Positions 4,635 through 24,741 of a stretch of 57,619 nucleotides of DNA are shown here, one piece after another. Below the pieces are notes generated by a model. The model was given only the letters and a program-made list of their open reading frames with translations. It did no database searches and was not told the origin of the DNA. Source of the stretch: an uncultured Bacilli bacterium (GTDB lineage Bacteria > Bacillota_I > Bacilli_A > RF39 > UBA660); the NCBI GenBank assembly GCA_947623935.1, contig CANQIE010000004.1, forward strand, positions 1 to 57,619, read 5' to 3'. The translations under genes were made by a program, and so were the position numbers. Positions within the stretch are counted from its first letter, which is position 1. Each line of letters opens with the position of its first letter.

Positions 4635-5075
4635 TTACGCATTATCTCCGGTAGGTCCTGTAGGTCCTTGAGGCAACGTTAAATTAAGTAAGTAATCCGT
4701 TCCTTGCAAAACGATTTCAGCCGAAGCATCTTCTCCTGGACCAGTCGTGGTAACTGTTCCAATTCGTAAAGTCGGCATAGCTCCTTCCGGAATCGTAAAG
4801 TTTAAAACAGCCGCATTTTCAGTCCCTACATTTTCCACTGCTGCAGGTGTTCCAGCCGTGGCAGTCGTAACTGTTCCAACCGAGATTGTAGCGGCATCTC
4901 CGGTTGGTCCTGTAGGCCCCGTTGGTCCAGTTGGTCCAACAAAACCCATTCCAGGAAGGCCTTGCGGTCCTGTTGGTCCCGTTGCCCCTGTTGGTCCTGC
5001 TATAAAGCAGAAAGGTGGAAATGGACGTTGATTTGATTCATTATTATTACAATTCATATTCATAACTCCTTTCAC
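4635..5075 (-). CDS. Short collagen-like protein (GPT repeats), probably spore surface
   Basis: GPTGATGPTG and [10 protein letters not shown] runs plus two TISVGTVTT...LNFTIP-type spacer modules; true start probably at 5063 after SD AAGGAG. Confidence 0.75.
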   Translation of the reverse strand: MKGVMNMNCNNNESNQRPFPPFCFIAGPTGATGPTGPQGLPGMGFVGPTGPTGPTGPTGDAATISVGTVTTATAGTPAAVENVGTENAAVLNFTIPEGAMPTLRIGTVTTTGPGEDASAEIVLQGTDYLLNLTLPQGPTGPTGDNA

Positions 5076-5117: not shown

Positions 5118-5594
5118 TCACTGTTTCACTAAATTATTTTCTATTTCTTTCACATTACTCCTACCAATGAGCCAATCCATAGAATAACCATACTTCTCTG
5201 CTAATTTCTTTAACATTAATGTTTGCATATAATTTTTACGACGAGGATTTTTATATTCCGAATACGTTGTATTTTGAATACCTAATACTTTAGCGATTTT
5301 TCTTCCGTTAACGTGTTGTTCTTTTTCTAAAATATCTAAACGACTTGCCATAATGTTCTTATCGATGGTAGCCATCTTGATTAAGTGATCGCATCTATTG
5401 ATATCGGTAAGACGACATACATAATCCATACTTAAGTTTAATGCTTCACAATAATAGAAAAGTTTGAGTAGTTTAATATTCGCAATTTCCGCTTCAATAT
5501 TAGCATATCCACCTCTACTCACATGCATGTATCCTGCTACTTCTACTTGTTTTAAATCTCTATTATCTCTAATCTCCTTAAACCGGTATTCCAT
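5118..5594 (-). CDS. Tandem XRE-family helix-turn-helix regulator (two HTH domains)
   Basis: RFKEIRDNRDLKQVEVA...SMDYV and KIAKVLGIQNTTYSEY...YSMDWLIGR repeats. Confidence 0.75.
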   Translation of the reverse strand: MEYRFKEIRDNRDLKQVEVAGYMHVSRGGYANIEAEIANIKLLKLFYYCEALNLSMDYVCRLTDINRCDHLIKMATIDKNIMASRLDILEKEQHVNGRKIAKVLGIQNTTYSEYKNPRRKNYMQTLMLKKLAEKYGYSMDWLIGRSNVKEIENNLVKQ

Positions 5595-18027: not shown

Positions 18028-18056
18028 AGTATATTAAATTTCTCCAATATATTCAA
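18028..18056 (-). promoter_or_regulatory. Sigma-A promoter for the T-box/leuS leader, overlapping the end of the GH31 gene
   Basis: TTGAAT-N17-TATACT. Confidence 0.65.
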
Positions 18057-20460
18057 GTAATTTTAAAAATAATTGCATGTATTCTTTTGTAAGTTTCTGT
18101 CTTTTAAGTTTTCTAATTTCAATCCGTTTTTTCTTAATTGGTAACTCAGAAAACATAATCGAAGAGATTTTTTCCTTTAAATAGGTATTGATCTGTAAGT
18201 CCATCAAGATACTATCAATATCATCATTAATTACACGAACGGCATCGATTTCGATATCTTTTCCACGGCAGTTAATGGTAAGTTGTCCGACACTGGGAAC
18301 TTTACTTACCTCTACCACAAAGTCATTTTGTTCAATGTAACTTTTGGTAGGAATGCTCGTACTATTGAAGTAGGCCACAATGGAATCAGCTTCTTTGGTG
18401 TTACGGAAACGAATCTTGTAATCTCGATATTGAGGCACTAATCCGCTCTTTCCTTGAAGTGAACGAATAATCACAGTGTAGTTACTAGGTAAATAGTTAT
18501 AATCTATTTGCGTCGTTAAAAAGTAACCATCTTTATAAAGAGACGTTACTCCATCATCTTCATACAAGTTATAAGTATTGTTCTTTCCCGGGAATACATG
18601 AATTTCCATTTCAGTAGGATTTCCTGTATTATTTTGATTGCTCTTATTTGATAATGGAATAATACTTCCTCCACGAACAAACACCGGATAATCTTCATCA
18701 CGGAAGAAAGAAACTTGTTTCTTATTTCCAGGGAATTTTTTCCCTGTCTTAAAGTCATACCAAATACCTTCTGGAACATAGAAGCGATGAATGGTACGGT
18801 TCATAACCAAATCTTTTTTCGAAAGAATGGGCGCAATCATCATTTCGTCCCCAAAGTAGTATTGATTCCTGTAATCTTCATCATCATAGATCCATGGAAC
18901 CGAATAATATAAAGGTTCAATTAATGGTTTTCCGGTCATAGAATAGGCATAACTTGCCGTATATAAATAAGGAATTAGGCGGTGTCTTAAACGTAAGTAA
19001 TCATCCACGACCGTCATGGTTTTAATATCCCATCTCCAAGGCTCTCTTTTATAGTATTTTCCACGTGCGGAATGGAATCTTAAAATAGGACTAAATACCC
19101 CTAACTGGACATAACGAATATAAAGTTCAGGGTCCTCTATTCCACCATGGTTACCACCAATATCATGGCTCCACCATGAAACTCCTTGATTAGCAGCATT
19201 TTGATTTAAGATAGGAATTTTTCGTAAAGTATCCCAGGTTGCTTCTGTTTCTCCAGAATAAAGTACAGGATACCTATGAGGTGCAATTAAAGCAGGACGC
19301 CCTAAAAGCATTCCTCTTTTCGCATTGGTTCTTGCAAGATCTAAGAATTGATAATGGTTTAATAGCCATAAATCCGTCATACCTTTATCCACTTTATCAT
19401 AATCGTTCCAAAAGAAATCGACCTTCTTAGCTTCTAAAGAATGTAAAAATAATTTCATGTACACATCCATACAAACGGGATTCTCTGGATCAAATGGAAT
19501 AATCGTATCTTCCCCTGGCTTTAAATATTTAACCGCCTCGTTATATAAACTTTCAAACGGATAAATACCTTCGCTTGGATCCACTTGTAGGCCTACTCTT
19601 ATATTATGTTCATGTAACATTTTAATCGTTTCTTCTGGATTCGGGAACAAAGTAGGATTAAAGGTAAATCCTGTTTTCACTTTTGTTCTATTTCCTTTTT
19701 TATCTTGTATTTCTCTTAAGTGCCAATCTTTATCTAAAAGCACCACCGATATAGGAATATCGTGATATTCAAAATTACGTACTAATTCTTCTAAAGAATC
19801 GTTGCTATATTCTGTATTTCTACTCCACCAGTTACCCAAGGCATATCTTGGAATAAAAGAAGGATTTCCCGTCAATTTAAAATAATCTTGTAACGCTAAT
19901 TTAAAATCGTCTTTATATACAAATAAATAAATATCGATACCTGGATTATCTCTTTTCTTGAATGTTCCATCAGATTCAAACAATAGACTATTACTATCAT
20001 CAAAAGAAGCAAAACCATCCAGTGAATAAAGTCCTCTATAAGGAACTCTATTTTTCTTAGATCCATCAAAAGAAGTAAATACGCCCTTTAAATTCCTTGC
20101 TTCGGGATGTCTATAGTACCAAGTCTTATCGGTATCTCGAATATTTACTTTCAAATTATTCATTGGGACTACTTTCCCAGCATCAAAACTCATCTCTTTT
20201 TGATATTCTAATTCCAAGTATTTGGTACGAATTACTAAAAACTTATTATCTTCTTTTACTTCGAAAGCAAAAGGAGGAAAATTACGAAAAAGAGCAAACT
20301 GACTAGGAGCATCATAAAAAATTCCCTTCGGATTATATTCCATACGAATAAGTCTTTCGGTTAAAATGGTAAAACGATATGTTTGTCCAGATATAACAGA
20401 TTGTCCATTCGGATACGCATTCTTCATATCAAATTGAAATTGTTTACCTATATCGTACAC
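18034..20460 (-). CDS. Glycoside hydrolase family 31 protein (with DUF5110-type C-terminal domain)
   Basis: PRYALGNWWSR, LDKDWH, FFWND (nucleophile), HRYP, WWSHDIGG, QLGVFSPILRFH, LYEDDG. Confidence 0.88.
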   Translation of the reverse strand: MYDIGKQFQFDMKNAYPNGQSVISGQTYRFTILTERLIRMEYNPKGIFYDAPSQFALFRNFPPFAFEVKEDNKFLVIRTKYLELEYQKEMSFDAGKVVPMNNLKVNIRDTDKTWYYRHPEARNLKGVFTSFDGSKKNRVPYRGLYSLDGFASFDDSNSLLFESDGTFKKRDNPGIDIYLFVYKDDFKLALQDYFKLTGNPSFIPRYALGNWWSRNTEYSNDSLEELVRNFEYHDIPISVVLLDKDWHLREIQDKKGNRTKVKTGFTFNPTLFPNPEETIKMLHEHNIRVGLQVDPSEGIYPFESLYNEAVKYLKPGEDTIIPFDPENPVCMDVYMKLFLHSLEAKKVDFFWNDYDKVDKGMTDLWLLNHYQFLDLARTNAKRGMLLGRPALIAPHRYPVLYSGETEATWDTLRKIPILNQNAANQGVSWWSHDIGGNHGGIEDPELYIRYVQLGVFSPILRFHSARGKYYKREPWRWDIKTMTVVDDYLRLRHRLIPYLYTASYAYSMTGKPLIEPLYYSVPWIYDDEDYRNQYYFGDEMMIAPILSKKDLVMNRTIHRFYVPEGIWYDFKTGKKFPGNKKQVSFFRDEDYPVFVRGGSIIPLSNKSNQNNTGNPTEMEIHVFPGKNNTYNLYEDDGVTSLYKDGYFLTTQIDYNYLPSNYTVIIRSLQGKSGLVPQYRDYKIRFRNTKEADSIVAYFNSTSIPTKSYIEQNDFVVEVSKVPSVGQLTINCRGKDIEIDAVRVINDDIDSILMDLQINTYLKEKISSIMFSELPIKKKRIEIRKLKRQKLTKEYMQLFLKLLEYIGEI

Positions 20461-20574
20461 AATATCACCCCATCTATTCTTACTCTATATTATCATATCA
20501 TAAAAAGAAGAAGGTTACAATTATTCCAAAGAAATTTTCTCTTTTTGATTTTATTATATTTAAAATATGAAATC

Positions 20575-20602
20575 AAAAAAATACCTACAATAAAGTAGGT
20601 AT
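20575..20602 (-). terminator. Intrinsic terminator after the CLec-domain gene
   Basis: ATACCTAC-N6-GTAGGTAT followed by a T-run on the minus strand. Confidence 0.7.
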
Positions 20603-20644
20603 CATTCAAGAATAAAATTTAATTATTTTTTTAAGAAAAGGATG

Positions 20645-22414
20645 CTACGCTCCTATAGGAGCAAGCACAAGGCGAAACGAGCGGTCGACGTTCGCATTGC
20701 CATGGGTGCCATAAAACCAGAACACTCCTGCAGTCGAGCTATAAGTACAGTTGCCGCCGCGTTGGAGCCACGGGGTCGAAGAGATTACAAATCCTTGTTC
20801 ATCTCCATACCAGCCTGGAGTCTCTGATAAAGCATGTCCATAACATACTCCTTTATCGCATGCTGTTGCAGCTGCATCTCCGCTATATAAATCATAATAT
20901 TTTTCGTCTGGAAATGCTCGTCCATTTTCTACTGAACCACTATTTAATACTCCATTGAATCCTGAATTATATTGAGTAGTTCCACCACTTCTTGGTTTAC
21001 CAGTTCCATCATCTAATGCACCCATTACATACTCAATGGTTCCACCACTCATATCATATACTCCTGTTATATTTCCTGTCGTGGATGTTTTTAATCCGTT
21101 TGTTGAAGTATAATCTTCACTACATCTTGCAGCTCCTGTCCGAAATTGACTACAACTATTTATTAATACTTCCGTTTGATCTTTACCATATTTTCCATAT
21201 TTGCTTTGAGATAAGTATACTACTGCTCCCCATTCACTATTCTTACTCATATGTGTATCATAACTGGTTTGACTATTAGAAAATCCGTAAACATTATTAT
21301 TTGTTGTTTGCATCCTTCTACTTACTTCAAAAGCAGTTGATACTCGGATTCCTCTCCATGAAGTTACACTTGGTCTTATTTCTGGAGTATACGTTTCTAT
21401 ATCACATTCAGTATCTACCGAAAAATTTATTGCAGTACATTCTTCTTTACTGCTTGTTTCAAACTTTCCATACCAGAATCCAGTTAATTCATCACTTCCA
21501 AAAGTAAAAGCTGGATGCACTATATAATCATCGGTACTTACTGTATTACTAGTTCCATTGATAAAGTTGACTTTAATTTCCCCTGGATTTAGGTAGCATT
21601 CATAATTACCACTTACAATACTACTTGTGCAATTGCTTTTATATCCTCCAGCATTTTTTATACTTACATAATTGTATTCATATCTTGGAATCCATACCCA
21701 CATCGTGTTGATGTCATCCATAAGTATGGGTGTCCCTGCTTCTGCTGTTTGATAACTCTCTCTTTTCTTAGTACTTACTCCATCATCATCTAATTTTACA
21801 GTTACCGCATTCGCCCATTCTTGATTATAGTAATTGTACCATTGTTTAGTGGTATTTGCTTTTACCCATGACTTTTGACTTTCATCATAAACAACCGGTA
21901 TTAATCCTTCTACTAATTTAGGAGTATTGGGTTCTATCCTTTCATAAGTTTCCGTAATTTTACTTTCATTTTCCGCAACTACTAAAGTTTTATTGCTTAA
22001 TCCACATCTTCCATAAAAAGTTATAGTCTCATCACTAGTTCCATTATTCTTTAATCTTAAAATGTATGTCTTTGTATTTCCTATTGCTAAACTTTCTACT
22101 TCTATTGCACTTTCATTACTACTTGCTGCTGAAACTTCTATATTGTTTCCACTATAAGTGATTGTAGAGTGAATATTCGTTAAACTTTGATTGGTTAAAG
22201 TGATTTCTATCTCTCTTTCTGCACCAGCTTTTAAAGTTATTTGATTGTTTGTTAAATCTTTGCTTTCAATAGGACAAGAAACGTTTCCTACCGCAATGTT
22301 AAGGGCACCTTTCTTTTCAATTTTTATGGTGAAAAGTGCATAACTAAAACTAATAATCCCTACAATCATTAAAGTTATTACTATGCTAAATAGAATTTTA
22401 ACTTTATCTTTCAA
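20645..22414 (-). CDS. Membrane-anchored surface protein with C-terminal CLec/FGE-sulfatase-like fold; probable DGR target
   Basis: N-terminal signal/TM (ISFSYA), WVWIPRY, GFWYGKFE, EWGAVVYLS, GVYDMSGG-x-x-E, RGG...AGVF...SFRLVL C-terminus. Confidence 0.75.
   Translation of the reverse strand: MKDKVKILFSIVITLMIVGIISFSYALFTIKIEKKGALNIAVGNVSCPIESKDLTNNQITLKAGAEREIEITLTNQSLTNIHSTITYSGNNIEVSAASSNESAIEVESLAIGNTKTYILRLKNNGTSDETITFYGRCGLSNKTLVVAENESKITETYERIEPNTPKLVEGLIPVVYDESQKSWVKANTTKQWYNYYNQEWANAVTVKLDDDGVSTKKRESYQTAEAGTPILMDDINTMWVWIPRYEYNYVSIKNAGGYKSNCTSSIVSGNYECYLNPGEIKVNFINGTSNTVSTDDYIVHPAFTFGSDELTGFWYGKFETSSKEECTAINFSVDTECDIETYTPEIRPSVTSWRGIRVSTAFEVSRRMQTTNNNVYGFSNSQTSYDTHMSKNSEWGAVVYLSQSKYGKYGKDQTEVLINSCSQFRTGAARCSEDYTSTNGLKTSTTGNITGVYDMSGGTIEYVMGALDDGTGKPRSGGTTQYNSGFNGVLNSGSVENGRAFPDEKYYDLYSGDAAATACDKGVCYGHALSETPGWYGDEQGFVISSTPWLQRGGNCTYSSTAGVFWFYGTHGNANVDRSFRLVLAPIGA
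20649..20794 (-). other. Putative DGR variable region (VR) with 3' invariant end and terminal palindrome
   Basis: 77 of 136 nt are G+C over 20645-20780 (hand count) in an AT-rich gene; conserved residues use A-free codons, variable positions are NNC/NNT; palindrome GCTCCTATAGGAGC at 20649-20662. Confidence 0.7.
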
Positions 22415-22467: not shown

Positions 22468-22496
22468 AGTATAAAATTAGATATTCTATTCGTCAA
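22468..22496 (-). promoter_or_regulatory. Sigma-A promoter of the CLec-domain gene
   Basis: TTGACG-N17-TATACT. Confidence 0.65.
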
Positions 22497-22517: not shown

Positions 22518-23528
22518 TTAAAACGTGACAAATTGTTTCCACTTTTCTTCTAATGCTTTTCTTTCATTTTCCGATAAGGAATCTATTTCCTTGATTTCAA
22601 CTTCTTCTCTATCAAATACTTTATAATCTGTTAATACTATGGCAATGTTACTTTCTAAAGATAAAGTATCTTTCAAAAAAGAGATTTTAATATTAAGATT
22701 ACTGTTATTTAAATCATCTTTTTCCTTATCGATGATGAAGTCTACACTATAAGGCAAATCGTACCATGAAGAATCTAGATGAATTAATATTTCTTTATCT
22801 TGAACTTGAATAGTTCCAGATATATTTTGCCCATCGCTTTTATAACTACTAAAAGTATATTCGGTTTCTTTTACTAATTCATAACGGGTGTTATCTTGGT
22901 TATTTGTAAGTGAAAAAAGTTCTTTATTTTCTAGACTTTGATAACTAAACGTATAATTGTTTTTTTCTAACTCCATCAAAAGAATATGGTTCATGCCTTT
23001 AATATAAAGATTGATTTCTTCATCTTCTGATAGTCTTAATGTATATTTACGTACTCTTTCCTCTTTCCCATTTAATGAAAGCGTTATATCTTTTGTTGTA
23101 CTCGATTCAAACTGTTTTCCTTCTTTTAAAGATTTTATGAGATTTGATATTTGTTCTTTATTCATGAAGAAATCTTGATTTATAGTTGTATGATAATATT
23201 CTTGATCGAGTTCAAAATAAAGATCTTTCTCTTGTTTCCATACATTAAAAGAAACAGGTTCTGCTTCAAAAAGATTTTCTAAAGATTTTGAAATGGTGGT
23301 GCTTATTTCCATCGTGGAATTTTCGTTTAAAAGAGCAAAATAAGGGCTATTTAAGTCTTCTACGATTTGGTTTATACTTTTGTTCATTTTAGAAAGATTG
23401 GTTATTAATAATTTACTAGGATCAGATAGAGCATAAATGACATAAAAGATCCCCATGCAGCCTATGATAGTGACTAAAACAATGATAACACCTAATAAGG
23501 GATTAGGTTTTACTTTGGTATTGTTCAT
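22518..23528 (-). CDS. Hypothetical membrane-anchored protein
   Basis: N-terminal TM and beta-rich ectodomain; SD AGGAG. Confidence 0.55.
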   Translation of the reverse strand: MNNTKVKPNPLLGVIIVLVTIIGCMGIFYVIYALSDPSKLLITNLSKMNKSINQIVEDLNSPYFALLNENSTMEISTTISKSLENLFEAEPVSFNVWKQEKDLYFELDQEYYHTTINQDFFMNKEQISNLIKSLKEGKQFESSTTKDITLSLNGKEERVRKYTLRLSEDEEINLYIKGMNHILLMELEKNNYTFSYQSLENKELFSLTNNQDNTRYELVKETEYTFSSYKSDGQNISGTIQVQDKEILIHLDSSWYDLPYSVDFIIDKEKDDLNNSNLNIKISFLKDTLSLESNIAIVLTDYKVFDREEVEIKEIDSLSENERKALEEKWKQFVTF

Positions 23529-23536
23529 AGCGTCTC

Positions 23537-24664
23537 CTATTTATCGATAAACATAACGTAGTATTCATCGAAGGTTAGATTATTTTCTTTCATGTAAGTG
23601 GCAATTTCTACTCCGACATAACGGAAGTGCCATGCTTCATAACTGTAACCCGTAATCTTTTCTTTTCCTTTAGGGTAACGTAATATAAAGCCATATTCGT
23701 GCGCATGTTCTGTTAACCATTTATATTCTTTGGTATTCGCAAACACACTGGTTTCACTTTGGGCAATATCGATAACAAGTCCTGTTTGATGTTCTGAAAA
23801 ACCAGGGCGAGCTGCTATTTCATCGGCTCTTTTACTACCATATAATTTGACATAGTCGTTGTAGAGACTTTCTTGTTGTTGATACGTTCTATAGGAACTT
23901 CTTGCTCTCATCGTAAGTCCTTCTTTGGAAGCATCATCGACCATTTTAATAAAAGCTTCTTCAGCTACTCTAGACATATACTGATTTCCATTGATACAAT
24001 AACTACTTGGAATTTCCACTAAGTCATCCGGTACATAGTTTTCACTTAATTTACGATATTTATTGGCTAATACATCGATAGAGAAATCATGAATCTCAAT
24101 GGCATCTTCATAAAAATCACGGTCTAATCCAATATTGACCTGTACGACCGCATCTTGATCCATGGCTACGGTTTTTGCTTGGTATTCTTTATAACGATCT
24201 AGATAAGCTAATTTGGCATAGTCGTATTTTAAATACCGAAGCGTATTGGGTTGATAATCTTTTTCAAGAAAACTTGTTATATCTTCATCGTTTCCCGTTT
24301 TTAAAATAGCATCAATTTCTTCAACACTATAACCTTTGGCAAAGAGTTCATTAATATGTTTGGTAAATTGTTCTTGATCTTGATATGAAACTTGAGCATA
24401 GATATCGATGTTCTCTTTCTTAAAGTCTTTACTTGAAAGCGCTTTATCTAGTGCTTTATTGTCTTTATGTTTAGAGGCATAATCCTTTAGTCCTTGACTA
24501 AATATGACGTCTACTGCTTCTTTTGAATAACCATAGGACGCAATCTCATTTTTTTGGATTTGAACATAAGTAAAAGGCACCACAATTAAAAGAAGAAGAA
24601 CACCTACTATTCCTAATAATTTCATTCCTTTTTTAGATAATTTTAATTTCTTTTTAACGGCCAT
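23537..24664 (-). CDS. M15B family D-Ala-D-Ala/LD-carboxypeptidase (VanY/LdcB-like)
   Basis: SSYR, PGFSEHQTGLVID, YEAWHFRYVG; start at MAVKKK after SD GAGGTGG. Confidence 0.88.
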   Translation of the reverse strand: MAVKKKLKLSKKGMKLLGIVGVLLLLIVVPFTYVQIQKNEIASYGYSKEAVDVIFSQGLKDYASKHKDNKALDKALSSKDFKKENIDIYAQVSYQDQEQFTKHINELFAKGYSVEEIDAILKTGNDEDITSFLEKDYQPNTLRYLKYDYAKLAYLDRYKEYQAKTVAMDQDAVVQVNIGLDRDFYEDAIEIHDFSIDVLANKYRKLSENYVPDDLVEIPSSYCINGNQYMSRVAEEAFIKMVDDASKEGLTMRARSSYRTYQQQESLYNDYVKLYGSKRADEIAARPGFSEHQTGLVIDIAQSETSVFANTKEYKWLTEHAHEYGFILRYPKGKEKITGYSYEAWHFRYVGVEIATYMKENNLTFDEYYVMFIDK

Positions 24665-24741
24665 AGCCCCACCTCTATTCTCTATTCGATTATAGCATAG
24701 ATAAGAAATCTTTTTCAACAATAGGATCATTATTTGTTATA

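What the first reader, a model, noticed from the sequence alone, without database searches (positions are those of the whole stretch)
20645..20794. Orphan DGR variable region at the 3' end of a surface-protein gene (remote retroelement target)
Seen: the last ~45 codons rise to ~57% GC (77/136 nt, hand count) in an AT-rich gene. Most structurally fixed residues use adenine-free codons, several of them rare for this genome (TCG, CCG, TGG, CGC GGC GGC, GTG TTC, GCG, TCG TTT CGC CTT GTG CTT). The intervening positions are almost all NNC/NNT (ACC, AAC, TGT, ACT, TAT, AGC, ACT, TAT, GGC, ACC, CAT, AAT, AAC, GTC, GAC, CGC), as expected from AAC/AAT template codons after A-to-N mutagenesis. The protein ends in the CLec-type RGG...AGVF...SFR motif. 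Established: DGRs such as Bordetella phage BPP-1 mtd and Treponema TvpA diversify such CLec C-termini, and some act on distant targets. Inference: a chromosomal, membrane-anchored protein with its own sigma-A promoter and terminator is hypermutated in trans by a DGR elsewhere. I found no RT, Avd or template repeat in these 57 kb.
Basis: partly seen in the sequence, partly recalled or inferred. Interest (0 to 1): 0.82.

Follow-up and report, generated by a model that had tools for sequence, protein, structure and literature searches.

The report
Frozen DGR variable region, enzymes lost
The GC-rich tail of this surface-protein gene was written by a diversity-generating retroelement and is one of 42 such gene tails in a tiny gut-bacterium genome, but the reverse transcriptase that writes them is missing here and the tail looks frozen rather than still mutating.

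Summary

- **Gene.** It lies at 20645..22414 (-) and encodes 589 aa. The last 300 aa fold like DGR variable proteins (pLDDT 91.7; best PDB match TaqVP, E 9e-8).
- **Template repeat.** The 1.15-Mb genome holds a non-coding, AAC-rich template repeat on contig C2, and 42 paralogous genes with this tail.
- **Relatives.** Same-genus relatives carry TR-MSL-Avd-RT cassettes.
- **This genome.** No RT or Avd was found in this 93%-complete assembly. Two cassette remnants lack those genes.
- **Mismatches.** The window VR differs from the TR at 18 of 34 adenine sites, but also at 10 of 74 other sites. Live pairs in relatives show 15/15 and 8/8 adenine-only mismatches.
- **Population.** Contigs of the one sample found show a single VR sequence.

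Verdict: a real DGR-type target, most likely a frozen relic. Ongoing diversification in trans is not excluded.

The parts
20645..22414 (-). Gene for a 589-aa membrane-anchored or secreted variable protein, one of 42 paralogs in the genome
   Evidence: ORF. Paralog table: 42 genes, 73,317 bp, 6.4% of the assembly.
20648..21547 (-). C-terminal 300-aa FGE/CLec-type domain that carries the VR
   Evidence: AlphaFold2 on a 70-sequence alignment gave pLDDT 91.7 and pTM 0.92. Foldseek top match is TaqVP 5vf4 (E 9e-8, prob 1.00), followed by Mtd and FGE. The Pfam FGE-sulfatase match is sub-threshold (E 0.024, 14.7 bits against a cut-off of 23.3).
20656..20783 (-). Variable region proper. It aligns without gaps to the template repeat at G000:C2:59000..58873.
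   Evidence: 75.8% identity over 128 nt. Mismatches fall at 18 of 35 TR adenines and 13 of 93 other bases. Without the last six codons the counts are 18/34 and 10/74, Fisher p = 3.3e-5.
20643..20667 (-). Hairpin (core GCTCC-TATA-GGAGC) spanning the last codons and the stop codon. It is the candidate cis element for target recognition and is absent from the TR.
   Evidence: DNA fold: -6.7 kcal/mol, z = -2.73, 6 of 200 shuffles fold as well. The TR tail folds at -1.4 kcal/mol, z = +0.48. Comparable hairpins occur in a subset of paralogs.
20580..20603 (-). Intrinsic-terminator-like stem-loop with a T run, 42 nt after the stop codon
   Evidence: 1 site found; shuffles give 0.6 +/- 0.7.
22331..22393 (-). 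N-terminal hydrophobic segment (about residues 8-28), read as a signal anchor or signal peptide
   Evidence: Read from the translation (ILFSIVITLMIVGIISFSYALF). All complete paralogs begin in the same way. No topology program was run.
22139..22327 (-). Ig-like (ASH) domain, residues 30-92
   Evidence: Pfam PF15780, E 8.8e-7, 29.5 bits against a cut-off of 27.
22468..22496 (-). Promoter-like site TTGACG-17-TATACT upstream of the start codon
   Evidence: 10 of 12 matches. The number of such sites in the region does not exceed that in shuffles.

Best explanation
The region is the variable region (VR) of a target gene of a diversity-generating retroelement (DGR). In the past, a reverse transcriptase copied an AAC/AAT-rich template repeat (TR) RNA into cDNA, misread its adenines, and the cDNA replaced the 3' end of this gene. 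That left GC-rich scaffold codons and randomised NNC/NNT codons in a C-type-lectin/FGE-fold binding surface.

The gene is one of 42 paralogs spread over a 1.15-Mb genome of an uncultured gut member of the Bacilli. This genome keeps one TR unit, on contig C2. The genes for the MutS-like accessory protein (MSL), Avd and the RT, which follow the TR in same-genus relatives, are deleted at both remnant loci and were found nowhere in the assembly.

Since the last rewriting, the VR has changed by ordinary mutation: 10 of 74 non-adenine sites differ from the TR.

**Most likely state (inferred):** a frozen, inherited member of a stored repertoire of variant surface receptors, not a region still being hypermutated.

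**Shown:** the VR-TR homology, the adenine bias, the fold, the family size, the cassettes in relatives, the truncation of the cassettes here, and the lack of variants in the contigs.

**Inferred:** that the RT is truly absent from the cell, that rewriting has stopped, and that the protein binds a ligand at the cell surface.
For: 1. **TR.** C2:59000..58874 (-) is non-coding. It lies 130 nt after a paralog's stop codon and reads STNPWFKRGGNYNDGTNAGVFNFNNNNGNANSNNSFRLVLAP.
2. **Adenine bias.** Window VR against TR: 18/34 adenine sites and 10/74 other sites differ, p = 3.3e-5. The bias is significant (p < 0.05) in 35 of 42 paralogs. Over 861 paralog pairs, identity is 0.294 at TR-adenine sites, 0.571 at other VR sites and 0.678 upstream.
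3. **Fold.** pLDDT 91.7; best PDB match is the DGR variable protein TaqVP, E 9e-8.
4. **Cassettes in relatives.** G005:C130 and G003:C92/C79 hold TR-MSL-Avd-RT. Scores: MutS_I 4.7e-8; DivGenRetAVD 80.3 bits against a cut-off of 80; RVT_1 1.1e-17.
5. **Live controls in the same family.** G019:C3 has a TR/VR pair in the same type of protein with 15 of 15 mismatches at adenines. G008:C8 has 8 of 8. The visible 44 nt of G005's cis VR show 7 adenine mismatches and 0 of 34 others.
6. **Loss here.** RVT_1 gave 0 hits at E <= 10. bAvd gave 0. The G005 RT protein gave 0. tblastn with six cassette proteins found only a 38-aa MSL stub. C2 matches G005's cassette only up to a hairpin just before the MSL start, then runs into sporulation-type genes. 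C18 holds a VR fused to a TR-type end, followed by an MSL stub and post-RT sequence.
7. **Decay.** The orthologous cis VR on C2 shows 6 of 34 non-adenine mismatches where G005 shows 0. All 42 VRs have at least 10/74.
8. **No variants.** One contig of depth about 15 spans 20300-20848 with 0 differences in each of 4 runs of one sample.
Against: - The assembly is 93% complete, in 50 contigs, with a shortest contig of 3,002 nt. In G005 the whole cassette sits on a 3,139-nt contig between repeats, so a cassette could have been lost in assembly or binning.
- Of the six genomes surveyed with 14 or more family matches, the other five have an RT. G000 is the odd one out, which would also fit a missed RT.
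- The TR keeps all its AAC/AAT codons. The hairpin after its spacer kept its pairing through base changes on both arms relative to G005, which could mean that the TR is still used.
- The window VR keeps 57% GC and the best hairpin of the family.
- Part of its non-adenine mismatches could come from a different, lost TR. Three positions match G005's TR better than the C2 TR. The orthologue of the window's GH neighbour is directly preceded by a DGR cassette in G003.
- Contigs drop rare variants, the depth was about 15, and only one sample was found. Low-level activity cannot be excluded.
Confidence: 0.6

Rival explanations
1. The VR is still an active remote DGR target. An intact cassette (RT, Avd, MSL, and probably a second TR variant) lies in the unassembled 7% of the genome, or on a mobile element of the same cell, and rewrites this and other paralogs in trans.
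For: - The genome is incomplete (93%), and the family itself breaks the assembly: 10 of 42 genes are cut by contig ends.
- G005's cassette contig is only 3,139 nt long.
- Five of the six genomes surveyed with 14 or more family matches have an RT.
- The TR and its downstream hairpin are kept intact.
- The VR hairpin is intact.
- One close paralog pair (C15/C37: 0.89 identity upstream, 0.35 at adenine sites) was rewritten after duplication.
- RT-less DGR loci served in trans are in print for Thiohalocapsa (passages of 10.1101/2023.09.22.558884).
Against: - No VR of the 42, not even the one beside the TR, matches the TR at non-adenine sites (minimum 10/74). Live pairs in relatives match perfectly.
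- Two cassette remnants have lost exactly the enzyme genes.
- Five searches found no RT or Avd.
- No VR variants appear in the contigs.
- Four of the closest paralog pairs keep 0.59-0.79 identity at adenine sites, so they were not rewritten since they duplicated.
Confidence: 0.3
2. The tail has nothing to do with a DGR in this gene's own history. It is a conserved GC-rich domain end kept alike among paralogs by gene conversion or codon constraints, and the variable positions differ because of ordinary diversifying selection on a binding site.
For: - Non-adenine mismatches to the TR are many (10-39 of 74).
- Some close paralog pairs differ mainly at the binding-site positions while sharing derived residues. 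C6_11447 and C18_426 are 0.95 identical at non-adenine sites and 0.59 at adenine sites. This fits point mutation with selection better than rewriting.
Against: - A non-coding, Asn-codon-rich TR with the same scaffold exists.
- Third positions of the variable codons are C/T while the rest of the gene prefers A/T. Arg is CGC/CGT and never AGA; Gly is GGC/GGT against GGA upstream.
- Identity at TR-adenine sites is near random (0.294).
- Relatives have complete cassettes with adenine-only pairs in the same protein type.
Confidence: 0.04
3. Assembly or binning artefact: the gene, or its GC-rich tail, comes from another organism or is a chimeric join.
For: The genome is a 50-contig assembly with a repeated family.
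Against: A single contig of depth about 15 runs from the neighbouring glycoside-hydrolase gene through the VR to 20848 without any difference, in each of the 4 runs laid, all from one sample. Contamination is given as 0.04%. The same tail occurs 42 times, on 29 contigs.
Confidence: 0.01

Closest known systems
Treponema denticola DGR with TvpA and remote targets
   Same: A cellular (non-phage) DGR whose TR serves several surface proteins with FGE/CLec-type C-termini far from the RT. Seven non-adjacent targets are stated in passages of PMC5758913.
   Different: Here there are 42 genes with the VR type in 1.15 Mb, none a clean adenine-only match. No RT was found in the genome. The accessory gene in relatives is MSL plus Avd, not HRDC.
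MSL-type DGRs (Architecture D of Wu et al. 2017, which includes the Legionella DGR)
   Same: Relatives' cassettes hold a small MutS-domain-I protein together with Avd and RT. This matches the MSL class as described in passages of PMC5758913.
   Different: I did not compare sequences with the published MSL set; its supplements are closed. In this genome the MSL, Avd and RT genes are deleted.
Dispersed variable-protein paralogs with remnant TR-VR homology in cyanobacteria (Nostoc all3226; Vallota-Eastman et al. 2020)
   Same: CLec paralogs that arose by duplication, and some keep only remnant homology to a TR with no RT nearby. The authors propose that the diversification components are removed once a variant is fixed (passages of PMC7517822).
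   Different: The scale and setting differ: 42 copies making up 6.4% of a reduced gut-bacterial genome, against a few copies in genomes several times larger. The proteins here are surface-anchored with no signalling domains.
Thiohalocapsa PB-PSB1 multi-DGR genome
   Same: Many DGR loci and targets in one genome (nine loci, 15 targets), some loci lacking an RT or TR and served in trans (passages of 10.1101/2023.09.22.558884).
   Different: There the trans targets match a TR perfectly at non-adenine sites and are diverse in nature. Here no VR matches, and no diversity was seen.
Thermus aquaticus TaqVP and Bordetella phage Mtd (solved DGR variable proteins)
   Same: Best structural matches of the modelled domain: 5vf4, E 9e-8; 1yu0/1yu1, E about 0.02.
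   Different: Sequence identity is 12-16%. A profile search of PDB sequences found nothing. TM-scores are moderate (0.31-0.49).

Membership tests
Diversity-generating retroelement (the target and its system) | A template repeat homologous to the variable region exists in the same genome | tested here: met
   C2:59000..58873 aligns to window 20783..20656 over 128 nt without gaps, at 75.8% identity. The repeat is non-coding and AAC/AAT-rich.
Diversity-generating retroelement (the target and its system) | TR-VR mismatches are confined, with minor exceptions, to TR adenines | tested here: not met
   18/34 adenine sites differ, but so do 10/74 other sites. The bias is strong (p = 3.3e-5) but not exclusive. 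Live pairs in relatives show 15/15 and 8/8 mismatches at adenines.
Diversity-generating retroelement (the target and its system) | A DGR-class reverse transcriptase is encoded in the genome | tested here: not met
   0 hits in the 93%-complete assembly with RVT_1 at E <= 10, with the G005 RT protein, and by tblastn with two relatives' RTs. An RT is present in 4 of 7 same-genus and 15 of 24 same-family genomes. Absence from the cell is not proven.
Diversity-generating retroelement (the target and its system) | An accessory gene (Avd, HRDC, MSL or CH1) lies beside the TR and RT | tested here: not met
   bAvd gave 0 hits. Only a 38-aa MSL stub survives at C18:280-167. Relatives have MSL plus Avd.
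Diversity-generating retroelement (the target and its system) | The VR lies at the 3' end of an ORF, in a C-type-lectin/FGE fold | tested here: met
   The VR covers the last 46 codons. The model matches TaqVP, Mtd and FGE.
Diversity-generating retroelement (the target and its system) | A cis element (IMH and hairpin/cruciform) follows the VR and is lacking after the TR | tested here: inconclusive
   A hairpin sits at 20643-20667 (z = -2.73), with none at the TR tail. Similar hairpins occur in only a subset of the 42 paralogs. An IMH cannot be defined without a live TR/VR pair. The role of such hairpins is recalled from the Bordetella phage literature, not read here.
Diversity-generating retroelement (the target and its system) | The VR is hypervariable within natural populations | tested here: not met
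   One contig of depth about 15 carries the reference VR with 0 differences in each of 4 runs of one sample. The test is weak: contigs drop rare variants, and only one sample was found.
FGE-sulfatase / CLec superfamily (Pfam PF03781) | A score over the Pfam gathering threshold | tested here: not met
   Window domain: E 0.024, 14.7 bits against a cut-off of 23.3. 23 of 70 family members match at E <= 0.01, best 1.8e-4. Fold-level membership is supported instead.

The most novel reading that the evidence does not exclude
In this clade of reduced-genome gut Bacilli the DGR acts as a write-once generator of a germline repertoire. It randomises the binding site of a cis target, and diversified copies are then duplicated and scattered. 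Dozens of different frozen receptors come to fill about 6% of a 1.15-Mb genome (43, 46, 33 and 33 profile matches in four genomes from three genera). The writing enzymes can then be lost, as here, without loss of the repertoire. The cell would get its surface variety from a stored library, perhaps with switching of expression as in mycoplasma surface-protein families (recalled), rather than from continuing hypermutation.
Probability: 0.3. Interest if true: 0.75.

Novelty: new member of a known kind. Interest (0 to 1): 0.5.

Why it matters
DGRs, remote targets and decayed paralogs of targets are all known. What stands out is the scale and the setting. This ~1.15-Mb genome spends at least 6.4% of its DNA on 42 genes with a DGR-type variable tail. 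In the passages I read, the largest counts were 15 targets in one genome and eight targets for one DGR.

Related genera show similar expansions. This genome seems to have lost the enzymes while a sister species keeps them. That gives a natural comparison of a live and a frozen repertoire, and a way to date how long a VR survives after rewriting stops.

Full-text searches found no paper that joins DGRs with RF39 (0 papers), Tenericutes (3 papers, none with either term in its title or abstract) or Mollicutes (1 paper, an RT survey of 2008). Paper supplements were closed, so large DGR catalogues may already list these loci.

Tried and rejected
- **First structure model.** A model built from the 21 paralogs alone was useless (pLDDT 41.4). 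It was replaced by a 70-sequence alignment.
- **PDB profile search.** A profile search of PDB sequences found nothing.
- **MSL-like hit on C10.** This proved to be the ordinary 850-aa MutS gene.
- **Syntenic orthologues of the window gene.**
  - G005's contig ends inside the neighbouring GH gene.
  - G004 has orf397 directly beside GH, with no VR gene.
  - G001, G002, G006 and G007 gave only the GH gene.
  - No orthologous VR could therefore be compared.
- **Is the window locus a former cassette site?** G003 has MSL-Avd-RT directly before the GH orthologue. The window's 140 nt between the stop codon and the GH promoter region show no similarity to cassette sequence. The idea stays open.
- **orf336 (22518-23528).** It is single-copy and not part of a repeated module.
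- **TR of G003:C92.** It is only about 50 nt long and fits the window VR worse than the C2 TR does.
- **Contigs that skip 20681/20682 to 20801.** I read these as paralogs that share the conserved flanks. The shorter side is only 34-35 nt, and depth rises only over the conserved ends. I do not read them as variants of this locus.
- **First set of relatives' RT loci.** They had flanks too short to hold TR/VR pairs. Larger stretches were fetched.
- **High-GC spot at window 4826-5025.** It holds no tRNA and was not followed further.
Full report
**1. What is in the window**

The finding lies at the 3' end of a minus-strand gene, 20645..22414, of 589 aa. They include TCG ACC CCG TGG, CGC GGC GGC, GTG TTC and TCG TTT CGC CTT GTG CTT, with NNC/NNT codons in between. 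The protein ends PWLQRGG...AGVF...SFRLVLAPIGA*.

GC content:
- 78/136 = 57.4% for 20648-20783.
- 54.7% for 20645-20794.
- 33.1% for the rest of the gene.
- 32.8 +/- 5.1% for 150-nt windows genome-wide.
- Only 22 of 45,805 such windows reach 54%.

A hairpin with core GCTCC-TATA-GGAGC spans the last codons and the stop codon. Its DNA fold is -6.7 kcal/mol, z = -2.73. A terminator-like stem with a T run follows at 20603..20580. A promoter-like site lies upstream, but such sites are no more frequent there than in shuffled sequence.

**2. The rest of the genome**

The window is contig C4 of a 1.15-Mb assembly. It has 50 contigs, 32% GC, 93.2% completeness and 0.04% contamination.

The 201 nt around the finding match many other places in the genome. 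tblastn with the last 74 aa finds 43 places at E <= 1e-5.

Forty-two of these are the 3' ends of paralogous genes:
- They are 103-786 aa long as assembled.
- Ten are cut by contig ends.
- The complete ones start with a hydrophobic N-terminal segment.
- Together they make 73,317 bp, or 6.4% of the assembly.

The forty-third place is different. C2:59000..58874 (-) is a non-coding copy of the tail only, 130 nt after the stop codon of a paralog. It reads STNPWFKRGGNYNDGTNAGVFNFNNNNGNANSNNSFRLVLAP and is full of AAC/AAT codons. This is what a DGR template repeat looks like.

**3. Is the pattern that of adenine mutagenesis?**

The window VR aligns to this TR over 128 nt without gaps, at 75.8% identity. 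That is the best match of all the VRs. Leaving out the last six codons, 18 of 34 TR-adenine sites differ, against 10 of 74 other sites (Fisher p = 3.3e-5). The bias is significant (p < 0.05) in 35 of 42 paralogs. Non-adenine divergence runs from 14% (the window gene, the lowest) to 53%.

Over all 861 paralog pairs, identity is:
- 0.294 at TR-adenine sites, which is near random.
- 0.571 at the other VR sites.
- 0.678 in the 50 codons upstream.

Codon usage tells the same story:
- In the VR, Arg is CGC/CGT and never AGA.
- Gly is GGC/GGT, where the upstream part uses GGA.
- Third positions of the variable codons are C or T, where the rest of the gene prefers A or T.

The tail therefore bears the mark of a GC-rich, AAC-rich template. 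It also bears many C-to-T and other changes that a fresh rewrite would not leave.

**4. The protein**

A model of the last 300 aa built on 70 diverse relatives is confident (pLDDT 91.7, pTM 0.92). Its best PDB matches are:
- The DGR variable protein TaqVP (5vf4; E 9e-8, probability 1.00).
- PorK.
- The Bordetella phage Mtd.
- Formylglycine-generating enzymes.

Pfam's FGE-sulfatase model stays under its threshold for the window protein (E 0.024). It matches 23 of 70 relatives weakly.

The domain family is large. 4,305 clusters at 50% identity match at E <= 0.001, and 1,569 at E <= 1e-30. In the species-representative genomes it is found mostly in uncultured gut Bacilli and 'Tenericutes' assemblies, often at many loci per assembly. 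549 of them were confirmed and the best 80 were listed.

An Ig-like ASH domain follows the N-terminal hydrophobic segment. I infer a surface-exposed binding protein. No ligand is known.

**5. The machinery in relatives**

RVT_1 matches occur in 4 of 7 same-genus genomes and 15 of 24 same-family genomes.

In G005 a 3,139-nt contig holds, in order:
- The end of a VR gene.
- A TR 94% identical to the C2 TR.
- A 210-nt spacer ending in a hairpin.
- A 156-aa MutS-domain-I protein.
- A 136-aa Avd.
- A 353-aa RT.

Family scores for these proteins:

| Protein | Family | Score |
|---|---|---|
| MSL | MutS_I | E 4.7e-8 |
| Avd | bAvd | E 3.6e-20 |
| Avd | NCBIfam DivGenRetAVD | 80.3 bits, cut-off 80 |
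| RT | RVT_1 | E 1.1e-17 |

The RT carries IGNYTSQ and YMDD. That these are DGR-typical motifs is recalled, not read here. The RT finds phage RTs, among them five Bordetella phage records, all under 60% identity; the eight best rows shown lie at 36-41%.

G003 has two such cassettes. MSL with Avd is the published Architecture D (passages of PMC5758913).

These elements behave canonically:
- In G019 (same family; RT 50% identical to G005's) a 121-nt TR/VR pair, in the same kind of protein tail, has 15 of 15 mismatches at adenines.
- In G008 the count is 8 of 8.
- A third pair, in G024, is less clean: 27 at adenines and 9 elsewhere.
- In G005 the visible 44 nt of the cis VR show 7 adenine mismatches and 0 of 34 others.

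**6. The machinery in this genome**

None was found:
- RVT_1: 0 hits at E <= 10.
- Pfam 23S_rRNA_IVP: best E 0.27.
- bAvd: 0 hits.
- G005 RT protein: 0 hits.
- tblastn with six cassette proteins of G005 and G003: only the first 38 aa of MSL at C18, and a shorter copy at C16.

Two remnants explain this.
- **C2.** It is colinear with G005's cassette contig from the VR end through the TR and spacer (92% over 506 nt). Similarity stops right after the spacer hairpin, a few bases before the MSL ribosome-binding site. Genes of the sporulation type (YabP/YqfD-like by my reading, not searched) follow.
- **C18.** A paralog ends with the TR-type tail ...FRLVLAPRL*. It is followed by the TR-downstream spacer, an MSL stub, and then sequence that in G005 lies after the RT. 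A 155-nt identical copy of that junction lies at the end of C16.

**7. Is the VR still being rewritten?**

Evidence against:
- No VR of the 42 matches the TR at non-adenine sites. The minimum is 10/74, and the VR beside the TR has 13/74.
- In the 44-nt stretch where G005's cis pair has 0 of 34 non-adenine mismatches, the orthologous pair on C2 has 6 and the window VR has 5.
- This divergence is of the order of, or above, the 8% that separates G000 and G005 in flanking DNA.
- Four of the closest paralog pairs (0.90 identity upstream) keep 0.59-0.79 identity at adenine sites. They were not rewritten since they duplicated. One pair (C15/C37) was.
- The only runs that hold the locus are four runs of one rabbit-gut sample. 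In each of them one contig of depth 14-15 spans 20300-20848 with no difference, and no variant is listed in 20645-20800.

Evidence for possible activity:
- The assembly is incomplete and is broken by this very family.
- G005's cassette sits on a contig barely longer than this assembly's shortest contig.
- Among the six genomes surveyed with 14 or more family matches, only this one lacks an RT.
- The TR keeps all its adenine codons, and the spacer hairpin keeps its pairing through changes on both arms.
- Three of the window VR's non-adenine mismatches fit G005's TR better, so a different, lost TR may have written it.
- In G003 the orthologue of the window's neighbouring glycoside-hydrolase gene is directly preceded by MSL-Avd-RT. 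In G004 that gene directly abuts the orthologue of orf397. The window locus may therefore once have held its own cassette.

I put 0.6 on a frozen relic, 0.3 on continuing activity from unassembled parts, and little on non-DGR or artefact readings.

**8. Comparison with what is known**

Remote targets are known for Treponema (seven). The largest number of targets for one DGR in the 2017 survey was eight (passages of PMC5758913). Thiohalocapsa PB-PSB1 has nine loci and 15 targets, some served in trans (passages of 10.1101/2023.09.22.558884).

Dispersed CLec paralogs with remnant TR-VR homology, and the idea that diversification components are removed once a variant is fixed, are in print for cyanobacteria (passages of PMC7517822).

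The present case is therefore a new member of a known kind. What is unusual:
- The number of copies per genome. Profile matches are 43 here, 46 in G018, and 33 each in G005 and G011, all in genomes of about 1.2 Mb.
- The share of the genome.
- The host group.
- The side-by-side presence of a species with the enzymes and one without.

Full-text searches for DGR together with RF39, Tenericutes or Mollicutes gave 0, 3 (none with either term in its title or abstract) and 1 (an RT survey of 2008) papers. For Roux et al. 2021 I saw passages only. Supplementary tables of the DGR catalogues were closed and may list these loci.

**9. Limits**

- Match counts from the genome search are not copy numbers.
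- Related genomes are not independent.
- The read evidence rests on contigs of a single sample.
- The listing of cluster members, the search of earlier findings and the pdb_via library were not available.

Noticed in passing
L020 (G005:C130) 478-948; L022 (G003:C79) 53-481: The DGR cassettes of this genus carry a small MutS-domain-I (MSL) gene before Avd and RT, in the order TR-spacer-MSL-Avd-RT with overlapping reading frames.
   Followed up: partly
G000:C18:1-230 and G000:C16:24866-25020: A 155-nt stretch, identical in both contigs, holds the junction of an MSL stub with post-RT sequence. The deleted-cassette scar is therefore itself duplicated, or it marks a contig overlap.
   Followed up: partly
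alignment A2 (relatives): 27 of 70 relatives of the domain carry an N-terminal prepilin-type methylation motif (Pfam N_methyl), so in other bacteria this variable domain sits on type-IV-pilin-like proteins. The window protein does not match that motif. Its N-terminus recalls SipW-type signal peptides (recalled, not tested).
   Followed up: no
L021 (G003:C92) about 5319-5388: One of G003's two cassettes has a TR of only about 50 nt, preceded by unrelated sequence with a terminator-like hairpin.
   Followed up: no
window 18034-20460 and 22518-24730; L042 (G004:C6): In G004 the orthologues of orf397 and the glycoside-hydrolase gene are adjacent. In this window the VR gene and the single-copy orf336 lie between them, and in G003 a DGR cassette precedes the hydrolase gene. 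This spot takes insertions.
   Followed up: partly
window 4826-5025: A second GC-rich spot (56-59% in 150-nt windows) holds no tRNA gene by ARAGORN. Its nature was not examined.
   Followed up: no
G000:C6:11447-13432 and G000:C18:426-2411: These two paralogs are 0.95 identical at non-adenine VR sites but only 0.59 at TR-adenine sites, while sharing derived residues. That looks like point mutation under diversifying selection at the binding positions rather than rewriting.
   Followed up: no
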